This document shows, one piece after another, positions 15,173 through 24,658 of a stretch of DNA of 64,000 bases. The stretch's first letter is position 1; every line of letters starts with the position of its first letter. The notes under the pieces were generated by a model. The model saw only the letters and a program-made list of their open reading frames with translations. It ran no database searches and was not told the DNA's origin. A program made the translations under genes and the position numbers. Source of the stretch: an uncultured Clostridia bacterium. Its GTDB lineage: Bacteria > Bacillota > Clostridia > TANB77 > CAG-508. The stretch spans positions 158,180 to 222,179 of the forward strand of contig CAMMZC010000001.1 in assembly GCA_946529215.1 (NCBI GenBank), written 5' to 3'.

Positions 15173-15646
15173 TTATATATTATTATATTCTCTTACTTTC
15201 TTTAATGAATATCCAGCAACAATTGCACCAATTATGATAACTACTGGTAAAACTTTGTTGTCTTCAATTCCAGTATAAGCTAAAGAATTAACCTCACTTT
15301 TATTTTCTTCTTCGTCTTCATTTGAATTTAATGTTGTTGTTGCACTTCCTGTACTAAGTGATGTACTATCTGTTCCTGTTCCAGAGTTTTCTGTTCCAGT
15401 TGTTCCTGTTCCAGTTGTTCCTGTACCAGAGTTTTCTGTTCCTGTTGTTGTTCCAGAGTTTTCTGTTCCAGTTGTGCCTGTATTATCTGTACTACTACCT
15501 GTTTCTGGAACTCCTGCATTTTCCCATTCTGATGCATTTGTACTTGAAAAATCATCTGCAGCAAATACAACAGAAGTTAAGTTCGCAATTAATAGTACAC
15601 TTAAAATAATTACTAATACAACTTTTAATAAACCTATTTTTCTCAT
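15173..15646 (-). CDS. sortase-anchored surface protein with Thr/Gly/Asn-rich tandem repeats (LAYTG sorting signal)
   Basis: Signal peptide (MRKIGLLKVVLVIILSVLLIANLTSVVFA). Repeats GTTGTENSGTTTGTENSGTGTTGTGTTGTENSGTGT are encoded by near-tandem DNA repeats at about 15358-15480. C-terminal LAYTG, hydrophobic segment and KKVREY tail. AGGAGG RBS. Confidence 0.7.
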   Translation of the reverse strand: MRKIGLLKVVLVIILSVLLIANLTSVVFAADDFSSTNASEWENAGVPETGSSTDNTGTTGTENSGTTTGTENSGTGTTGTGTTGTENSGTGTDSTSLSTGSATTTLNSNEDEEENKSEVNSLAYTGIEDNKVLPVVIIIGAIVAGYSLKKVREYNNI

Positions 15647-17864: not shown

Positions 17865-19028
17865 TTACCCAAAAATTCCTCTCTTTTTAATTGGAGGTTG
17901 TTCATTCATTGTTTTTGCAAGTTCTGTCAATAGTTCTCTTTGCTCTTTTGTAAGTCTTTTTGGTGTTTGAACAACAACATTGAATACAAAATTTCCAACA
18001 TAAGAAGAATTAAGGCTTTTGAATCCTTTCCCTCTAACTACAAATTGTGTTCCTGTTTGTGTTCCTTCTGGAATTCTGTATTTTTCTTTTTTTCCATCTA
18101 CCATTGGTACTTCAATATCAGCTCCTAAAGTGGCTTGTGTAATAGTTATTGGAATATCACAAATTACGTTATTTCCATCTCTTTTATAAATACTATGTTT
18201 TTTAACTCTTAATGTTATGTATATATCTCCTGCAGGTCCACCTTTTGTTCCTGGATTTCCTTGTCCTCTTAAGACTACTGTTTGATTATCTCCTATTCCT
18301 GCAGGAATTTTAACTCTAACTTTAGGCATTTTTCTTACAGTACCTTTTCCATGACACATATCACAAGGTTCTTGGATAACTTCACCTGTTCCATGACATT
18401 CTGGACAAGTTCTAGTTGTTTGAATTTGACCCAAAATTGTAGTTTGCATTTGTCTTATTTGTCCTGTACCATTACAAGCTTTACATTTAACAGGATTTGT
18501 TCCAGGTTTTGCTCCTGTTCCATGACATGTAGAACATGTTTCTTGTCTTGTAATTGTAACTTCTTTTTCCACACCCATAAAAGCTTCTTCAAATGTTATC
18601 TCTAAATTAAGATTTAAATCTTCACCTTTACGTGGTCCATTATTTCTTCTAGAGTTTGCTCTTTGTCCTCCAAATCCTCCACCAAAGAATGATGAGAATA
18701 TGTCTCCTAAGTCGCCAAAATCATCCCATCCAGAGCTTGTGTATGAATAATATCCATTACCTCCTCCAAATGGTCCTCCTGCCCCTCCGAAGCCAGCTTG
18801 AGGATCGGCAGTTCCAAATTGATCATACATTCTTCTTTTTTGAGGGTCAGAAAGTACCTCATATGCTTCATTTACTTCTTTAAATTTTTGTTCTGCTTCT
18901 TTTTTATTATTAGGGTTTGCATCTGGATGCCACTTTTTTGCCATTTTTCTATATGCCTTTTTTAGTTCATCATCAGTTGCTGATTTAGATACTCCTAATA
19001 TTTCATAATAATCTTTTTTTTCTGCCAT
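17865..19028 (-). CDS. dnaJ: chaperone DnaJ
   Basis: J-domain (DYYEILGV...HPD), G/F-rich region, four CxxCxGxG zinc repeats. Confidence 0.95.
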
Positions 19029-19030
19029 TT

Positions 19031-19597
19031 TTATCCTCCTTGTATTTCTTGGTCACATTGGCTTTCATTATTTATTCTTGCTTTTTCTATTTCTGATTTT
19101 ATAAAGTCTACTATTTTTCTTATTTTCTCTTTTTCTGATTCATCTATATCAGAATCATACATATCTTTAATAATGGGATCATAATATTTCCATTCTCTTT
19201 TTTTGCTGTCTATAAAATCCAAATTATCTTTACTTAATGAATAAGTACAATATATTAGCATTTTTTGTTCTCTTTGTTCTTTAGGAATCATTAAGTCCTT
19301 TGAATTACCTTCATCAACTAAGATGTATCCTGCATATAATAAAAATTCATGTTTTGGAATTTCTTTACCTATTTTTCTTTGTATTTTATTTAATATATCA
19401 TAATATCTTTGTTCACTAAATATTCTATCAGCAATATCAGGATGCCCTCTATCTATGCCTATTTTAATATTTTCATTTTTACCATTTGGACATTTATAAT
19501 ATCTTGTTTTGTCTTCTGCATCGCCTTTAATAAATTTATTTAGATTATTTATACTCCTTTTTAATGTGTTTAAAAAATTTATTTTATCTTCCTTCAT
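19031..19597 (-). CDS. hypothetical protein, paralogue of the upstream 153-aa ORF, embedded between dnaK and dnaJ
   Basis: 188 aa. Shares [16 protein letters not shown] / [19 protein letters not shown] with LLYYLGFIALDEGNKKS / IKDIYEDLDENEKSR of ORF 19709-20170. Its last codons (CAAGGAGGATAA) form the dnaJ RBS. Confidence 0.6.
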
Positions 19598-19708
19598 AAT
19601 TTAACCACACTTTCGACATCTACATTTTCAAATATTTCAAATACTTTCATTTCTCAATTTTTTACTTCTTTGTCAATAAGCCAAATCATTGTAATAGTCC
19701 CGTCTCTT

Positions 19709-20170
19709 TTATTTGTCTTGTTCATTTGGCTGTTTTTCAACTAATCTTTTATATTGTTCAAGTACTTGTGCACATCTAGATTTTTCATTCTCGTCTAAAT
19801 CTTCATATATATCTTTTATTAGAACATCTGGATATCTTTCTAATTTTTTTCTTAACTTTTCTACTCTATTTTTTGTTTTTTCATTTAATGATTTTGAAAT
19901 ATATAAAAGTGATTTTTTATTTCCTTCATCTAAAGCTATAAAACCTAAATAATATAATAAAGTACTAGATGATTCTCCATCTATTAGTAAGCTTTTTAAT
20001 AATTTAGATTTTTCAACTATATCATCTGCCCCTTGAATGTGATTTTTTCCCTCTTCTATAAATATACTTTTTCCTTCAGGCGTTATTATTGATTTTGTTG
20101 TTTTAACTTGTTTTTCCGCTTTCTCTCTTTGATCAATATTTTTCATAAATATATATCTTTTTGAGCTCAT
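19709..20170 (-). CDS. hypothetical protein, paralogue of ORF 19031-19597
   Basis: 153 aa. AGGAG RBS 7 nt upstream of the ATG. Motifs as described for its paralogue. Confidence 0.6.
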   Translation of the reverse strand: MSSKRYIFMKNIDQREKAEKQVKTTKSIITPEGKSIFIEEGKNHIQGADDIVEKSKLLKSLLIDGESSSTLLYYLGFIALDEGNKKSLLYISKSLNEKTKNRVEKLRKKLERYPDVLIKDIYEDLDENEKSRCAQVLEQYKRLVEKQPNEQDK

Positions 20171-20193
20171 TTCATAACTCCTATTAAATATTA

Positions 20194-20214
20194 GGCGGAT
20201 TTAAAAACTCCGCC
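20194..20214 (-). terminator. GC-rich hairpin just after dnaK (partial terminator/processing site)
   Basis: GGCGGA-N9-TCCGCC. The T-run lies on the plus side, and on the minus-sense RNA it is followed only by UAAUAUUUAAU, so it is probably leaky. Confidence 0.4.
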
Positions 20215-20221
20215 TTTTTTA

Positions 20222-22123
<1,902 letters not shown>

Positions 22124-22179: not shown

Positions 22180-22707
22180 TTATTGATTAACTATAACCAT
22201 ACTGTGTCTAAGTATCTTAGATCCTAATTTATAGCCCTTTCTATATTCTTGTACAATTTCTTGTGATTGTTTTGTATCATCTTGCACACTTCCTACTGCT
22301 TCATGTACGCTTGGATCGAACATTTCTCCAATTGCTGGAATTTCTTCTACATTATTTTTGCTTAAAAATTCTTTGAATTGCTTTTCTACAAGCTCTACTC
22401 CTTGCTTATATGCTTCGTCCTTACATTCAGCATTTACAGCCATTTGAAGATTATCCAGTAATGGTAATATATTTACTATTATATCCCCAAGTACTGAATT
22501 GTATAAGCCTTCTCTTTCTTTTTGTGTTCTTTTTTTATAATTTTCAAATTCTGCAAATACTCTTTTATATCTGTCATCTAACTCATCTAGTTCTATTTGC
22601 TTTTTTTGAAGTTCAGATTTTTCTTCGTTTTGCTTTATTTCATTATTTTTTTCTTCGTTTGTTACTTCTTCTTTTATTTCTTCTGTTTTATTTTCACTTT
22701 CTGCCAT
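22180..22707 (-). CDS. grpE: nucleotide exchange factor GrpE
   Basis: RVFAEFENYKKRTQKE and C-terminal GYKLGSKILRHSMV motifs. ATG at 22707 lies 7 nt after GGAGG. Confidence 0.9.
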   Translation of the reverse strand: MAESENKTEEIKEEVTNEEKNNEIKQNEEKSELQKKQIELDELDDRYKRVFAEFENYKKRTQKEREGLYNSVLGDIIVNILPLLDNLQMAVNAECKDEAYKQGVELVEKQFKEFLSKNNVEEIPAIGEMFDPSVHEAVGSVQDDTKQSQEIVQEYRKGYKLGSKILRHSMVIVNQ

Positions 22708-22781
22708 TTTCAAACCTCCTTTGTTTTGCTTTGTACAATATACTTTTCGTACTATTTTTACTGCTTTAATCTAGAGTAATT

Positions 22782-22808
22782 TTAGCACTCTGAAAGTGCT
22801 TTTGCTAA
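22782..22808. promoter_or_regulatory. variant CIRCE operator 1 (downstream of the grpE promoter -10)
   Basis: 27 nt in 9-9-9 geometry. Minus-sense TTAGCAAAA-GCACTTTCA-GAGTGCTAA against consensus TTAGCACTC-N9-GAGTGCTAA. Confidence 0.6.
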
Positions 22809-22819
22809 TTACGTTATAT

Positions 22820-22848
22820 ATCATATAACTTTTTTTAGCACTTGTCAA
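22820..22848 (-). promoter_or_regulatory. sigma-A promoter for grpE-dnaK inside the hrcA-grpE spacer
   Basis: Minus strand TTGACA (22848-22843), 17 nt, TATGAT (22825-22820). The -35 lies in the spacer of CIRCE-like element 2. Confidence 0.55.
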
Positions 22849-22861
22849 GTGTTTTTGCTAA
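22835..22861. promoter_or_regulatory. variant CIRCE operator 2 (overlaps the -35)
   Basis: Minus-sense TTAGCAAAA-ACACTTGAC-AAGTGCTAA, 27 nt, beginning 6 nt after the hrcA stop. Confidence 0.55.
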
Positions 22862-22866
22862 AAATT

Positions 22867-23871
22867 TTATTTTTTCTCATTCAGCTTTTTACTAATATAT
22901 TTCATTATAGAAATAACTTTTGCGTAGTCCATTCTTTTTGGTCCAATAATTCCAATTGTTCCCATATCTTTGTTGTCAACTTTATGTTTAAAAGTAACTA
23001 CACTAAAATCTTTAAGTTCTTCTTTTTCATTTTCTTCTCCAATATATATGTTTATATCATCTGCAAAGCCAGAGTTTAGCATATCTGCCATAAGATCTTT
23101 TGTATCTATTATGCTCATAAAGTTTTTTGCAACATCTAAGCTATTAAATTCAGGTAAATCAAGTTCTCTTCTTGCTCCTTCTAAATATATTTTTTCCTCT
23201 TCAAAAAGAACTTTTTTAATTTGCTCAATTATAGGCTTAATAACCTTTACAGAACCTTTCATTTCTTTGTATAAATATTCTTCTAATGGACCATCTATTT
23301 TTTCTATTGGTTGATTTTGCAATTTGTTGTTAAACATATAATTCAAAGTCTCTACTTGTTTTTCTGAAATATCTTCATCAAATTTAATTATTGTTTCTTT
23401 TACCATTCCTGTATCTGTCATAATAATTGCTAAAACCATTCTCGTTCCAAGCAAAACAAATTTTATTTCTTTTATTATTTGCTCTGTAGTTTTAGGTCCA
23501 ATTGTAACAGCTGTATAATGTGTCATTTCTGAAATTGTTGTTGCTGTAATCTTTGTTAAGTCTTCTATTTCATGTACTTTTGTTTCTAGCTTTTCACTTA
23601 TATATTTAATCTCGTCTAGACTTATTCTATCATCTTGCATAAGCTCATCTACATAGAATCTGTAGCCTTTTGCTGAAGGCACTCTTCCGCTTGAAGTGTG
23701 AACTTTATCTAAATATCCACCTTTTTCAAGATCTGCCATCTCATTCCTAATTGTTGCACTACTACAATTTAAATCATATTTGTTCATTATCGAATTTGAA
23801 CTTACAGGCTCAGCAGAATTTATGTATTCTTCTACTATAGCTTGCAATACTTTTCTTTTTCTTTCTTCCAT
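22867..23871 (-). CDS. hrcA: heat-inducible transcription repressor HrcA
   Basis: MEERKRKVLQAIVEEYINSAEPVSSNSI winged-helix N-terminus. Gene order hrcA-grpE-dnaK. Confidence 0.9.
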   Translation of the reverse strand: MEERKRKVLQAIVEEYINSAEPVSSNSIMNKYDLNCSSATIRNEMADLEKGGYLDKVHTSSGRVPSAKGYRFYVDELMQDDRISLDEIKYISEKLETKVHEIEDLTKITATTISEMTHYTAVTIGPKTTEQIIKEIKFVLLGTRMVLAIIMTDTGMVKETIIKFDEDISEKQVETLNYMFNNKLQNQPIEKIDGPLEEYLYKEMKGSVKVIKPIIEQIKKVLFEEEKIYLEGARRELDLPEFNSLDVAKNFMSIIDTKDLMADMLNSGFADDINIYIGEENEKEELKDFSVVTFKHKVDNKDMGTIGIIGPKRMDYAKVISIMKYISKKLNEKK

Positions 23872-23986: not shown

Positions 23987-24658
23987 CTATTTAAACTTTT
24001 CTATTCTTTCTTTTTCGTTATTAGATAACTCCTTAAACCACTTTGTCAAACCTGATGAATCGTTCTTTCTAATAAACTCGAAATATTTTACTCTATCTTC
24101 TTTTGTTATAACAACAGGTGGAATATCATTTTTTATTAATTCATAATTCATTAAAAGTCTACCTGTTCTACCATTTCCATCTTCAAAAGGATGTATTTTT
24201 TCAAATTCTATGTGATATCTTGCAATTTTTGTAAAAATATCTTGTTCATCATTGTTGTAATTATACACAAAATAGTTCATCAAATTTGGAATTTTTTCAG
24301 GTGCAGGTGGAATATGTTCACTTCCTCTAATAAAAACCTGCACAGTCCTGTATCCTTGTGTCTCTTTAATATCTTTATTAATTGTTTCATTTATTTTCTT
24401 TATAAATCTTTCATCAAAAGGCTCATTATTTTTTATGTTATCAAATACTAATTCTAAAGCCTTTTTGTGATTTATAGCTTCATATATTTCTCTTGGTTCT
24501 TTTCCCTGTATCTTAAAACTATTGTCATTGTATAAAATTGCATAAGTTTCGGCATAAGTAAGAGTGCTTCCTTCAATTGCATTTGAATGATATGTGCTTC
24601 TTGTAATTAAATCTTCTAAATATTCTTTGTTTTCTAATATAAAATTTAATATGTTCAT
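23987..24658 (-). CDS. fic: Fic/Fido-domain protein with N-terminal inhibitory helix motif
   Basis: HPFEDGNGRTGRLL matches HxFx(D/E)GNGRxxR. SNAIEG near the N-terminus matches the (S/T)xxxE(G/N) auto-inhibition motif. Confidence 0.85.
   Translation of the reverse strand: MNILNFILENKEYLEDLITRSTYHSNAIEGSTLTYAETYAILYNDNSFKIQGKEPREIYEAINHKKALELVFDNIKNNEPFDERFIKKINETINKDIKETQGYRTVQVFIRGSEHIPPAPEKIPNLMNYFVYNYNNDEQDIFTKIARYHIEFEKIHPFEDGNGRTGRLLMNYELIKNDIPPVVITKEDRVKYFEFIRKNDSSGLTKWFKELSNNEKERIEKFK

What the first reader, a model, noticed from the sequence alone, without database searches (positions are those of the whole stretch)
19031..20170. Two paralogous unknown genes inserted between dnaK and dnaJ and coupled to dnaJ translation
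The conserved hrcA-grpE-dnaK-dnaJ operon is interrupted by 153-aa and 188-aa ORFs. They share motif blocks: LLY(Y/A)(L/G)G(F/Y)I(A/L)(L/V)DEGN and IKD(I/M)Y(E/D)..(L/I)DE(N/S)EK. The stop of the second lies 2 nt from the dnaJ ATG, and its last codons supply the dnaJ RBS (AAGGAGGATAA). Only a leaky-looking hairpin separates them from dnaK. They are therefore likely heat-shock co-expressed and could be chaperone cofactors or clients. I recognise no known domain.
Basis: partly seen in the sequence, partly recalled or inferred. Interest (0 to 1): 0.65.

Follow-up and report, generated by a model that had tools for sequence, protein, structure and literature searches.

The report
Fast-evolving gene family between dnaK and dnaJ
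Two related, intact genes of an undescribed protein family sit inside the heat-shock chaperone operon of an uncultured ruminant-gut Clostridia bacterium; every relative whose neighbours could be read lies just after dnaK, and all but one lie between dnaK and dnaJ, so the family is probably tied to the chaperone system, though its function is untested.

Summary
On the minus strand the order is hrcA, grpE, dnaK, ORF153 (19709-20170), ORF188 (19031-19597), dnaJ. The two ORFs are paralogues (BLASTP E=1e-9). ORF188's stop lies 2 nt before the dnaJ ATG, and its last codons carry the dnaJ GGAGG.

New findings:
- The 111-nt spacer between the ORFs is the deletion remnant of a third, remotely related paralogue.
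- The family has no hit in Pfam, NCBIfam, PHROGs, PADLOC, PDB sequences, phages, plasmids or viral contigs. Only 32 clusters were found among 1.84 billion representative proteins.
- In 13 distinct loci, with DnaJ down to 73% identity, members lie between dnaK and dnaJ, in one to three copies. One further short contig is the exception: a Uma2 nuclease gene follows the member there.
- AlphaFold gives confident compact alpha/beta models (pLDDT 92 and 87) with no significant structural match.
- Protein evolution is about 15 times faster than in DnaK or DnaJ at similar synonymous divergence (dN/dS 0.3-0.7). Some alleles look exchanged between lineages.
- A promoter flanked by two CIRCE-like operators precedes grpE.

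The best reading is a clade-specific accessory or modulator of the DnaK-DnaJ system, comparable in concept to Thermus DafA or E. coli CbpM (confidence about 0.4). A conflict-type cargo in a recombination hotspot is the main rival. Expression is untested.

The parts
22867..23871 (-). hrcA, the heat-shock repressor and first gene of the cluster
   Evidence: ORF. The orthologue in L011 carries PF01628 HrcA.
22782..22861 (-). Promoter-like site TTGACA-17-TATGAT (22820-22848) bracketed by two CIRCE-like inverted repeats (22835-22861 and 22782-22808), just upstream of grpE
   Evidence: 2 matches to TTAGCA-N14-GTGCTAA against 0 in 100 shuffles. The same pair occurs upstream of grpE in L010 and L011.
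22180..22713 (-). grpE
   Evidence: ORF. The orthologue in L011 carries PF01025.
20222..22120 (-). dnaK. The listed ORF is 632 aa. Relatives start at [10 protein letters not shown], so the likely start is 22081.
   Evidence: PF00012 in the L011 orthologue.
20193..20215 (-). Conserved GC hairpin after the dnaK stop (AGGCGGA, 9-nt loop, UCCGCCU). It has a weak U-tract on the coding strand and is probably an attenuator or mRNA-stability element.
   Evidence: z=-2.99 for the 76-nt stretch. The GGCGGA/TCCGCC stem is conserved in L001, L002, L007, L010, L011, L015, L022 and L023 (near-identical in L024). In L019, L023 and L024 it lies after a family gene instead. No terminator was called.
19709..20170 (-). 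ORF153, family member of subtype A (17.9 kDa, pI 9.0, soluble). An AGGAG ribosome-binding site lies 8 nt upstream.
   Evidence: (AlphaFold pLDDT 86.5, pTM 0.75). Orthologues at 80% (L001) and 60% (L007) identity occupy the same position.
19598..19708 (-). Remnant of a third paralogue (ORF108 type, MVWFIDK...). About 47 nt of the 5' end are kept, with a 1-nt frameshift, plus about 45 nt of the 3' end. About 235 nt are deleted internally.
   Evidence: DNA alignment with the intact ORF108 genes of L002 and L010 and the remnant in L001. The ORF108 type is a remote homologue of the main family (hhalign probability 94.8%, E=5e-8).
19031..19597 (-). ORF188, family member of subtype B (22.4 kDa, pI 6.8, soluble). 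Its stop lies 2 nt before the dnaJ ATG.
   Evidence: (AlphaFold pLDDT 91.6, pTM 0.80). Orthologues at 55-56% identity (BLASTP/tblastn) in L001, L002 and L010 show the same coupling.
19034..19041 (-). Shine-Dalgarno sequence of dnaJ (AAGGAGGA), lying inside the last codons (Q-G-G) of ORF188
   Evidence: Read directly. The junction CAAGGAGGATAAAAATGGCA is identical in L001 and L002.
17865..19028 (-). dnaJ
   Evidence: ORF. Orthologues carry PF00226, PF00684 and PF01556.

Best explanation
ORF153 and ORF188, together with the decayed ORF108-type remnant between them, belong to an undescribed family of small, soluble alpha/beta proteins. The family is restricted to one clade of uncultured, very AT-rich gut Clostridia, and the dnaK-dnaJ intergenic slot is its home.

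I infer that the genes are transcribed with grpE-dnaK-dnaJ from the CIRCE-controlled promoter upstream of grpE. In this genome ORF188 is translationally coupled to dnaJ, so it would be made in proportion to DnaJ.

The most likely role is a non-enzymatic accessory that binds DnaK and/or DnaJ and tunes the chaperone cycle. Possible modes are holding a resting DnaK-DnaJ complex, damping J-protein activity, or directing the system to particular clients. This would resemble DafA in Thermus or CbpM in E. coli in concept.

Shown here: the gene order, the paralogy, the conservation of position, the coding constraint, the confident fold prediction and the regulatory motifs. Inferred only: co-transcription, binding to DnaK or DnaJ, and any effect on chaperone activity.
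For: 1. Position. Family members lie between dnaK and dnaJ in 13 distinct loci or alleles: window, L001, L002/L010, L007, L011, L015, L019, L021, L022, L023, L024, L027 and L028. These include members only 20-36% identical to the window proteins and a genome whose DnaJ is only 73% identical.
2. Absence elsewhere. There are no matches in phage or plasmid records, viral contigs, PHROGs or PADLOC.
3. Operon embedding. Gaps to dnaJ are as small as 2 nt and the dnaJ SD lies inside ORF188. In other loci a member starts 1-23 nt after the dnaK stop.
4. Regulation. A CIRCE-flanked promoter lies upstream of grpE and no terminator-like site occurs through dnaJ.
5. Real proteins. The ORFs stay open against about 10% stop probability per codon. 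dN/dS is below 1 and falls to 0.14 in the ORF153 core. AlphaFold models have pLDDT 91.6 and 86.5.
6. Binding rather than catalysis. No polar residue is invariant across the family: His52, Asp95 and Glu96 are each replaced in some members.
7. Precedents exist for lineage-specific proteins that act on this machinery: DafA (PMC3727329) and HagF acting on HrcA (bioRxiv 10.1101/2025.05.30.657042).
Against: There is no direct evidence of expression or of any interaction. DnaK and DnaJ are 93-98% identical among the close relatives while these proteins differ by 20-64% (dN about 15 times higher). That is unexpected for a partner docking on conserved chaperone surfaces. Copy number varies from 1 to 3, and pseudogene remnants and split genes occur, so no single copy is indispensable. 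Tight coupling to dnaJ is not universal. One member (L020) is followed by a Uma2 nuclease gene instead of dnaJ. No fold or sequence similarity to any known co-chaperone was found.
Confidence: 0.4

Rival explanations
1. The genes are conflict-type cargo in a recombination hotspot. They would be fast-evolving defence, counter-defence or immunity-like genes lodged between two ultra-conserved genes. Those flanks act as anchors for homologous exchange, and the genes borrow the stress- or phage-induced expression of the heat-shock operon. Their function would not be chaperone modulation.
For: Amino-acid divergence is about 15 times that of the flanks at similar dS, with dN/dS 0.4-0.7 and local values of 1 or more in the C-terminal helix. 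Tandem paralogues show birth-and-death: 1-3 copies, a deletion remnant and a split gene. Synonymous divergence of the ORF181 alleles among L001, L002 and L010 is 2-4% at two-fold sites, against 7-20% in the flanking dnaJ. This suggests the allele moved between lineages. Very different alleles (36-100% identity) sit next to nearly identical DnaK tails. A relative also has unknown genes inserted between hrcA and grpE, and a Uma2 nuclease gene follows one member.
Against: No member matches any PADLOC or PHROG model. There are no hits in phages, plasmids or viral contigs. No catalytic-looking invariant residues, no partner toxin or effector gene, and no mobility genes were seen. Ordinary defence cargo is found at many genomic sites, whereas this family was seen only in this slot.
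Confidence: 0.25
2. The proteins do something unrelated to chaperones, for example as a stress-induced small protein or a DnaK client. They would stay in the slot only through vertical inheritance and the convenience of an existing stress promoter.
For: The family is confined to one clade. Conserved position could therefore reflect shared ancestry rather than functional coupling. dS values similar to the flanks for the window versus L001 comparison fit vertical descent.
Against: The position is retained across loci whose DnaJ is only 73% identical, through repeated duplication, loss and allele replacement, and on either side of the hairpin. Such persistence despite turnover argues that the location matters.
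Confidence: 0.2
3. The proteins themselves are dispensable or decaying. What matters would be the act of translating through the spacer, which sets dnaJ translation by coupling and so sets the DnaK:DnaJ ratio. Otherwise the ORFs are nearly neutral leftovers.
For: There is a 2-nt stop-start gap and the dnaJ SD lies inside ORF188. dN/dS of ORF188 (window versus relatives) is about 0.7, with windows near 1. One paralogue has already decayed.
Against: Reading frames of 141-230 codons are kept open where about 1 codon in 10 would be a stop by chance. Motifs and a confidently predicted fold are conserved among members of 20-30% identity. Coupling is absent in several loci, with gaps of 43-108 nt. 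The ORF153 core has dN/dS 0.14 and the ORF108 type 0.07-0.2.
Confidence: 0.1

Closest known systems
DafA, the DnaK-DnaJ assembly factor of Thermus thermophilus
   Same: It is a small, lineage-restricted protein encoded in the dnaK operon, without wide homologues, that acts by binding. It assembles a DnaK3-DnaJ3-DafA3 complex and is displaced by substrate (PMC3727329).
   Different: From my own knowledge, DafA is about 8 kDa and lies after dnaJ (dnaK-grpE-dnaJ-dafA). The proteins here are 12-26 kDa, lie between dnaK and dnaJ, occur as 1-3 paralogues and evolve very fast. Homology could not be tested because no DafA sequence or model was on hand. No interaction is shown here.
CbpM, modulator of the J-protein CbpA in E. 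coli
   Same: It is a small protein encoded next to, and co-expressed with, a J-domain co-chaperone that it regulates by direct binding (own knowledge).
   Different: CbpM lies downstream of cbpA. None of the 33 members scanned matched any Pfam family consistently. A role as a J-protein inhibitor is only a hypothesis here.
HagF of Chlamydia
   Same: It is a clade-specific small protein under HrcA control that feeds back on the heat-shock regulon by binding a core component, HrcA (bioRxiv 10.1101/2025.05.30.657042).
   Different: HagF belongs to the HrcA regulon. Whether it lies inside the dnaK operon was not checked. Nothing suggests homology, and the target here is unknown.
Canonical hrcA-grpE-dnaK-dnaJ operon of low-GC Gram-positive bacteria
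   Same: The gene order, the CIRCE-type operators and a stem-loop between dnaK and dnaJ are shared. That a stem-loop or attenuation between dnaK and dnaJ is common in Firmicutes is from my own knowledge.
   Different: Here the dnaK-dnaJ spacer holds protein-coding genes, and the CIRCE pair precedes grpE rather than hrcA.
ADF-H / gelsolin fold (actin-binding domains)
   Same: For both models, several of the top Foldseek hits against the PDB are cofilin, ADF or gelsolin domains. From own knowledge, these domains bind actin, which shares the ATPase fold of the DnaK nucleotide-binding domain.
   Different: The matches are not significant: E 0.25-5, probability at most 0.28, TM-score at most 0.32. 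This is a lead only, not a classification.

Membership tests
Any curated protein family (Pfam-A, NCBIfam) | A score above the family's gathering or curated cut-off | tested here: not met
   Window proteins: the best Pfam E-values are 0.13-0.9 and the best NCBIfam hit is 17 bits against a cut-off of 114. No family recurs among the 33 members scanned against Pfam or the 41 scanned against NCBIfam.
Known co-chaperones of DnaK (GrpE PF01025, J-domain PF00226, CbpM/MerR_2) | Sequence match to the family model | tested here: not met
   No such hit appears. The neighbouring grpE and dnaJ genes do match their models.
DafA (Thermus) | Encoded in the dnaK operon | tested here: met
   The genes lie in the operon, between dnaK and dnaJ. 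The position differs from dafA, which lies after dnaJ (own knowledge).
DafA (Thermus) | [quoted passage not shown] | not testable with these tools
   No DafA sequence, model or structure was available. No multimer prediction or experiment was possible.
Phage or mobile-element gene families | A match to a PHROG, or presence in phage, plasmid or viral contigs | tested here: not met
   Searches (PHROGs; tblastn against phages and plasmids; IMG/VR) all gave nothing. Foldseek against BFVD gave a best E of 0.066.
Known anti-phage defence systems (PADLOC) | A match to a defence-protein model | tested here: not met
   Window proteins: best E 0.004-0.014, about 12-13 bits. None of the 41 members matches at E<=0.001.
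PD-(D/E)xK nucleases (top Foldseek hit for ORF188 was influenza PA-N) | Conserved catalytic D...(D/E)xK residues and fold similarity | tested here: not met
   Foldseek E=0.72, TM 0.24. There is no invariant acidic or lysine constellation. D95 and E96 are replaced in several members.
ADF-H / gelsolin fold | Significant structural superposition | tested here: inconclusive
   The hits recur in both models but are weak: probability at most 0.28 and TM at most 0.32.
The new dnaK-dnaJ spacer family defined here | Motifs (T)KYFxxPxGxxxYAxxGxxHxxIAxxI, FLxYxGYIxVDEG and YCSxSL; size 108-230 aa; located between dnaK and dnaJ | tested here: met
   Both window ORFs match the family profile. They share the predicted fold order b-b-a-a-a-b-b-a-b-a and the genomic position.

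The most novel reading that the evidence does not exclude
These proteins could be a new class of bacterial Hsp70-system cofactor with a fold not represented in the PDB. They would be made in step with DnaJ and dock on DnaK or DnaJ. In the boldest version, the core is a distant ADF/gelsolin-like module that grips the actin-fold nucleotide-binding domain of DnaK as cofilin or gelsolin grips actin. The rapid, mosaic evolution would then reflect an arms race, for example with phage proteins that hijack the host DnaK system.
Probability: 0.3. Interest if true: 0.75.

Novelty: new variant of a known kind. Interest (0 to 1): 0.55.

Why it matters
The DnaK-DnaJ-GrpE machine is among the most conserved and best studied systems in bacteria, and its operon is usually invariant. 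Extra, operon-encoded partners are known in only a few lineages, such as DafA and CbpM, and each has shown how the Hsp70 cycle can be gated.

Here a whole protein family appears to exist only in the dnaK-dnaJ slot. It has a confident but unmatched predicted fold, and it evolves about 15 times faster than its neighbours.

If it binds the chaperones, it is a new regulatory layer and a new fold for Hsp70 biology. If it does not, it shows that the core heat-shock operon can serve as a hotspot and expression platform for fast-evolving genes. Either outcome can be tested with recombinant proteins.

The limits are that the hosts are uncultured ruminant-gut Clostridia, the family is small, and nothing here shows function.

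Tried and rejected
- Domain and family searches (Pfam, NCBIfam, PHROGs, PADLOC) on the two proteins and on up to 41 family members gave nothing.
- A profile search of PDB sequences gave nothing significant; the best hit was E=0.036, on a helicase tail.
- Foldseek of both AlphaFold models against the PDB, and of the ORF153 model against BFVD, gave no hit at E<=0.001. I do not accept the weak PA-N endonuclease or ADF/gelsolin hits as classifications.
- Phage or plasmid origin is rejected by tblastn and the viral-contig scans.
- The expression test was inconclusive. No RNA run holds the ORF stretch itself. Rumen metatranscriptomes that share words with dnaK and dnaJ map at 90-95% identity, so they come from related taxa. 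At 98% identity essentially nothing of this strain is present.
- One contig-level 'joint' in run X18 appears to place dnaK next to dnaJ without the ORFs. It rests on 38-nt sides of short contigs, so I do not rely on it.
- The first metagenome scan, with the distant-subfamily alignment, found nothing.
- The unknown genes inserted between hrcA and grpE in L011 are not family members.
- Lower dS of the ORFs could in principle be a composition artefact. I rejected this because GC3 is the same (0.10-0.16) in the ORFs and the flanks.
Full report
**1. What is there**

All genes lie on the minus strand, in this order:

| Gene | Coordinates |
|---|---|
| hrcA | 22867-23871 |
| grpE | 22180-22713 |
| dnaK | 20222-22120 (relatives start at [10 protein letters not shown], so the likely start is 22081) |
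| ORF153 | 19709-20170 |
| ORF188 | 19031-19597 |
| dnaJ | 17865-19028 |

- The ORF188 stop codon (19031-19033) is 2 nt from the dnaJ ATG. The dnaJ GGAGG (19035-19039) lies in ORF188's last codons.
- A 7-bp GC hairpin (20193-20215) follows the dnaK stop. On the coding strand it lacks a U-run, and the terminator scan calls nothing between 17000 and 24500.
- ORF153 and ORF188 are paralogues: BLASTP E=1e-9, 31% identity. In a family alignment they align end to end.
- The window has 26.9% GC, so about one random codon in ten is a stop. The chance of either frame staying open is 6e-8 or less, and 0 of 20000 shuffles stayed open.
- Two independent public assemblies carry identical ORF153 and ORF188, flanked by gene fragments where the dnaK 3' end and dnaJ 5' end are expected (L005, L006/L026).

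**2. A third, decayed paralogue**

The 111-nt spacer between the two ORFs (19598-19708) aligns with both ends of an intact 108-aa gene (MVWFIDKEGKKW...). That gene occupies the same place in relatives L002 and L010.
- The window keeps about 47 nt of its 5' end, with a 1-nt frameshift, and about 45 nt of its 3' end. L001 keeps the 3' end only.
- This ORF108 type is a remote homologue of the ORF153/ORF188 family (hhalign probability 94.8%, E=5e-8 over 81 columns).

The slot therefore once held three family members.

**3. How rare and how unknown the family is**

- Word-indexed searches of 5.8 billion proteins found only two to three clusters per protein.
- An exhaustive HMMER profile search of 1.84 billion representatives found 32 clusters at E<=0.001.
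- A scan of one genome for each of 185,579 species, using motifs of the ORF153/188 type, found one locus (L010), in a 'Clostridia bacterium' MAG from goat omasum.
- DNA of the window recurs in bovine, sheep and goat gut metagenomes.
- The only names found for members were 'hypothetical protein' (two members carried a name).
- No member matches Pfam, NCBIfam, PHROGs or PADLOC.
- A family profile finds nothing credible among PDB sequences.
- There are no tblastn hits in 50,697 phage or 72,556 plasmid records, and none in IMG/VR.

**4. Conserved position**

I read the neighbourhood of every member I could look up.

| Locus | Layout from dnaK to dnaJ |
|---|---|
| Window | hairpin, 153, remnant, 188 |
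| L001 | hairpin, 154, remnant, 181 |
| L002, L010, L027 | hairpin, 108, 181; 1-2 nt between genes |
| L007 | hairpin, 151, then a 62 + 72 aa split gene |
| L011, L012 | hairpin, 120 (ORF108 type) |
| L015-L018 | hairpin, 157; DnaJ only 73% identical to the window's |
| L019 | 164, hairpin |
| L021 | hairpin, 161 |
| L022 | hairpin, 230 |
| L023 | 165 (1 nt after the dnaK stop), hairpin, 192 |
| L024 | 141, hairpin |
| L028 | 171 |

- That makes 13 distinct arrangements or alleles, all between dnaK and dnaJ.
- The only deviation is L020, a 1-kb contig. There a Uma2 nuclease gene follows the member and the upstream side is missing.
- The GGCGGA/TCCGCC hairpin is conserved, but family genes can sit on either side of it.

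**5. Regulation**

A TTGACA-17-TATGAT promoter-like site (22820-22848) lies between hrcA and grpE. It is bracketed by two CIRCE-like inverted repeats, TTAGCA-N14-GTGCTAA, at 22835-22861 and 22782-22808. None is expected by chance. The same pair precedes grpE in L010 and L011. Co-transcription of grpE-dnaK-ORFs-dnaJ under HrcA control is thus a reasonable inference, but it is not shown.

The RNA test failed. No RNA run holds the ORFs. Rumen metatranscriptomes that share dnaK and dnaJ words map mostly at 90-95% identity, so they come from other taxa, and they contain essentially nothing of this strain at 98%.

**6. The proteins**

- Both are hydrophilic and soluble, with no transmembrane segment (17.9 kDa, pI 9.0; 22.4 kDa, pI 6.8).
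- With a 41-sequence alignment, AlphaFold2 gives confident models. ORF188 has pLDDT 91.6 and pTM 0.80; ORF153 has pLDDT 86.5 and pTM 0.75. Both share the element order beta-beta-alpha-alpha-alpha-beta-beta-alpha-beta followed by a long charged C-terminal helix. ORF188 adds an N-terminal helix.
- Foldseek finds no significant match in the PDB or BFVD. ADF/cofilin/gelsolin domains recur among the weak hits of both models (probability at most 0.28, TM at most 0.32). I record this as a lead only.
- The conserved motifs are (T)KYFxxPxGxxxYAxxGxxHxxIAxxI, FLxYxGYIxVDEG and YCSxSL. No polar residue is invariant across the family. This points to a binding protein rather than an enzyme.

**7. Evolution** (Nei-Gojobori estimates)

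| Comparison | dS | dN | dN/dS |
|---|---|---|---|
| dnaJ, window vs L001 | 0.49 | 0.018 | 0.036 |
| dnaK 3' end, window vs L001 | 0.35 | 0.020 | 0.058 |
| ORF188, window vs L001 | 0.38 | 0.27 | 0.71 |
| ORF153, window vs L001 | 0.19 | 0.12 | 0.63 |
| ORF153, window vs L007 | 0.88 | 0.33 | 0.38 |
| ORF108 type (three pairs) | – | – | 0.07-0.20 |

- The ORFs are thus about as old as their flanks, yet they change protein sequence about 15 times faster.
- Sliding windows show strong constraint in the ORF153 core (pN/pS 0.14 for codons 31-60) and ratios of 1 or more in the C-terminal helix. ORF188 runs at 0.5-1.0 throughout.
- GC3 is the same in the ORFs and the flanks, 0.10-0.16. Even so, the ORF181 alleles of L001, L002 and L010 differ at only 2-4% of two-fold sites, against 7-20% in the adjacent dnaJ.
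- That pattern suggests alleles are exchanged between lineages, with the conserved chaperone genes as recombination anchors.
- Together with copy-number change and decay, the locus behaves as a hypervariable island in a highly conserved operon.

**8. Interpretation**

The strongest single fact is that the family is confined to the dnaK-dnaJ slot, despite duplication, loss, allele replacement and movement across the hairpin. It argues that the place matters, and therefore that the function is linked to DnaK-DnaJ. This is guilt by association, not proof.

I favour a non-enzymatic accessory or modulator of the chaperone pair (confidence about 0.4). In this genome it would be made in step with DnaJ through translational coupling. 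Conceptual precedents are Thermus DafA (PMC3727329), E. coli CbpM (own knowledge) and chlamydial HagF acting on HrcA (bioRxiv 10.1101/2025.05.30.657042).

The fast, mosaic evolution fits poorly with docking on near-invariant chaperone surfaces. It keeps alive a conflict-type reading, in which defence-, counter-defence- or immunity-like genes use the operon as a hotspot and stress-inducible platform (about 0.25). An unrelated function retained through vertical inheritance gets about 0.2. A mainly cis-acting or decaying role gets about 0.1.

**9. Novelty and score**

The family is undescribed in every library searched, and its predicted fold has no significant match. The idea of a lineage-specific, operon-encoded partner of the Hsp70 system is known, so I file it as a new variant of a known kind.

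Interest is moderate (0.55). It is a clean, testable and somewhat surprising exception in a textbook operon. Against that, the family is small, it is confined to uncultured gut Clostridia, and there is no functional evidence.

Noticed in passing
window 23987-24658 (-): A Fic/DOC-domain gene (PF02661, E=9.6e-25; motif HPFEDGNGRTGR) lies directly upstream of hrcA on the same strand. From own knowledge, metazoan FICD AMPylates the Hsp70 BiP, so a Fic enzyme beside the dnaK cluster may deserve a look. In L011 the gene upstream of hrcA is a ClpB-like gene on the opposite strand, so this neighbourhood is not conserved there.
   Followed up: partly
window 22782-22861 (-): Two tandem CIRCE-like operators bracket a near-consensus promoter between hrcA and grpE rather than upstream of hrcA. 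The same pair precedes grpE in L010 and L011. Only these two matches to the relaxed CIRCE pattern occur in the 64-kb window.
   Followed up: partly
L011 3579-5087: In a relative, two further unknown genes (346 aa and 144 aa) are inserted between hrcA and the CIRCE/grpE unit. They have no Pfam hit and are not members of the spacer family. The heat-shock cluster of this clade seems prone to acquiring lineage-specific genes.
   Followed up: partly
L007 2791-3173: Where ORF188 would be, this relative has two overlapping short ORFs (62 and 72 aa). The first weakly matches the N-terminal part of the family (E=0.002 against 1000 sequences). It looks like a split or frameshifted fourth subtype. The 62-aa ORF is also called in L008 and L009, and the 72-aa ORF in L009.
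   Followed up: partly
L020 598-1023: A Uma2-family putative restriction endonuclease gene (PF05685, E=3e-18) follows a family member (P0040). This is the only case where dnaJ is not the next gene. The contig is too short to see more.
   Followed up: no
window 15173-15646 (-): A 157-aa ORF has a signal peptide, Thr/Gly/Asn/Ser-rich repeats (TGTENSGT...), an LAYTG motif, a hydrophobic segment and a basic tail. It looks like a sortase-anchored surface protein.
   Followed up: no
window 20193-20219 (+): Read on the plus strand, the dnaK-proximal hairpin is followed by TTTTTT. It would therefore be a better intrinsic terminator for antisense transcription than for the operon itself.
   Followed up: no
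window 22081-22120 (-): The longest dnaK ORF begins 13 codons upstream of the [10 protein letters not shown] start used in all relatives. The annotated start should probably be 22081.
   Followed up: no
window 19028/20223, metatranscriptome run X18: Two short RNA-derived contigs join the dnaJ start directly to the dnaK stop region, skipping 1194 nt. This may mean that related strains lack the spacer genes, or it may be an assembly chimera.
   Followed up: no
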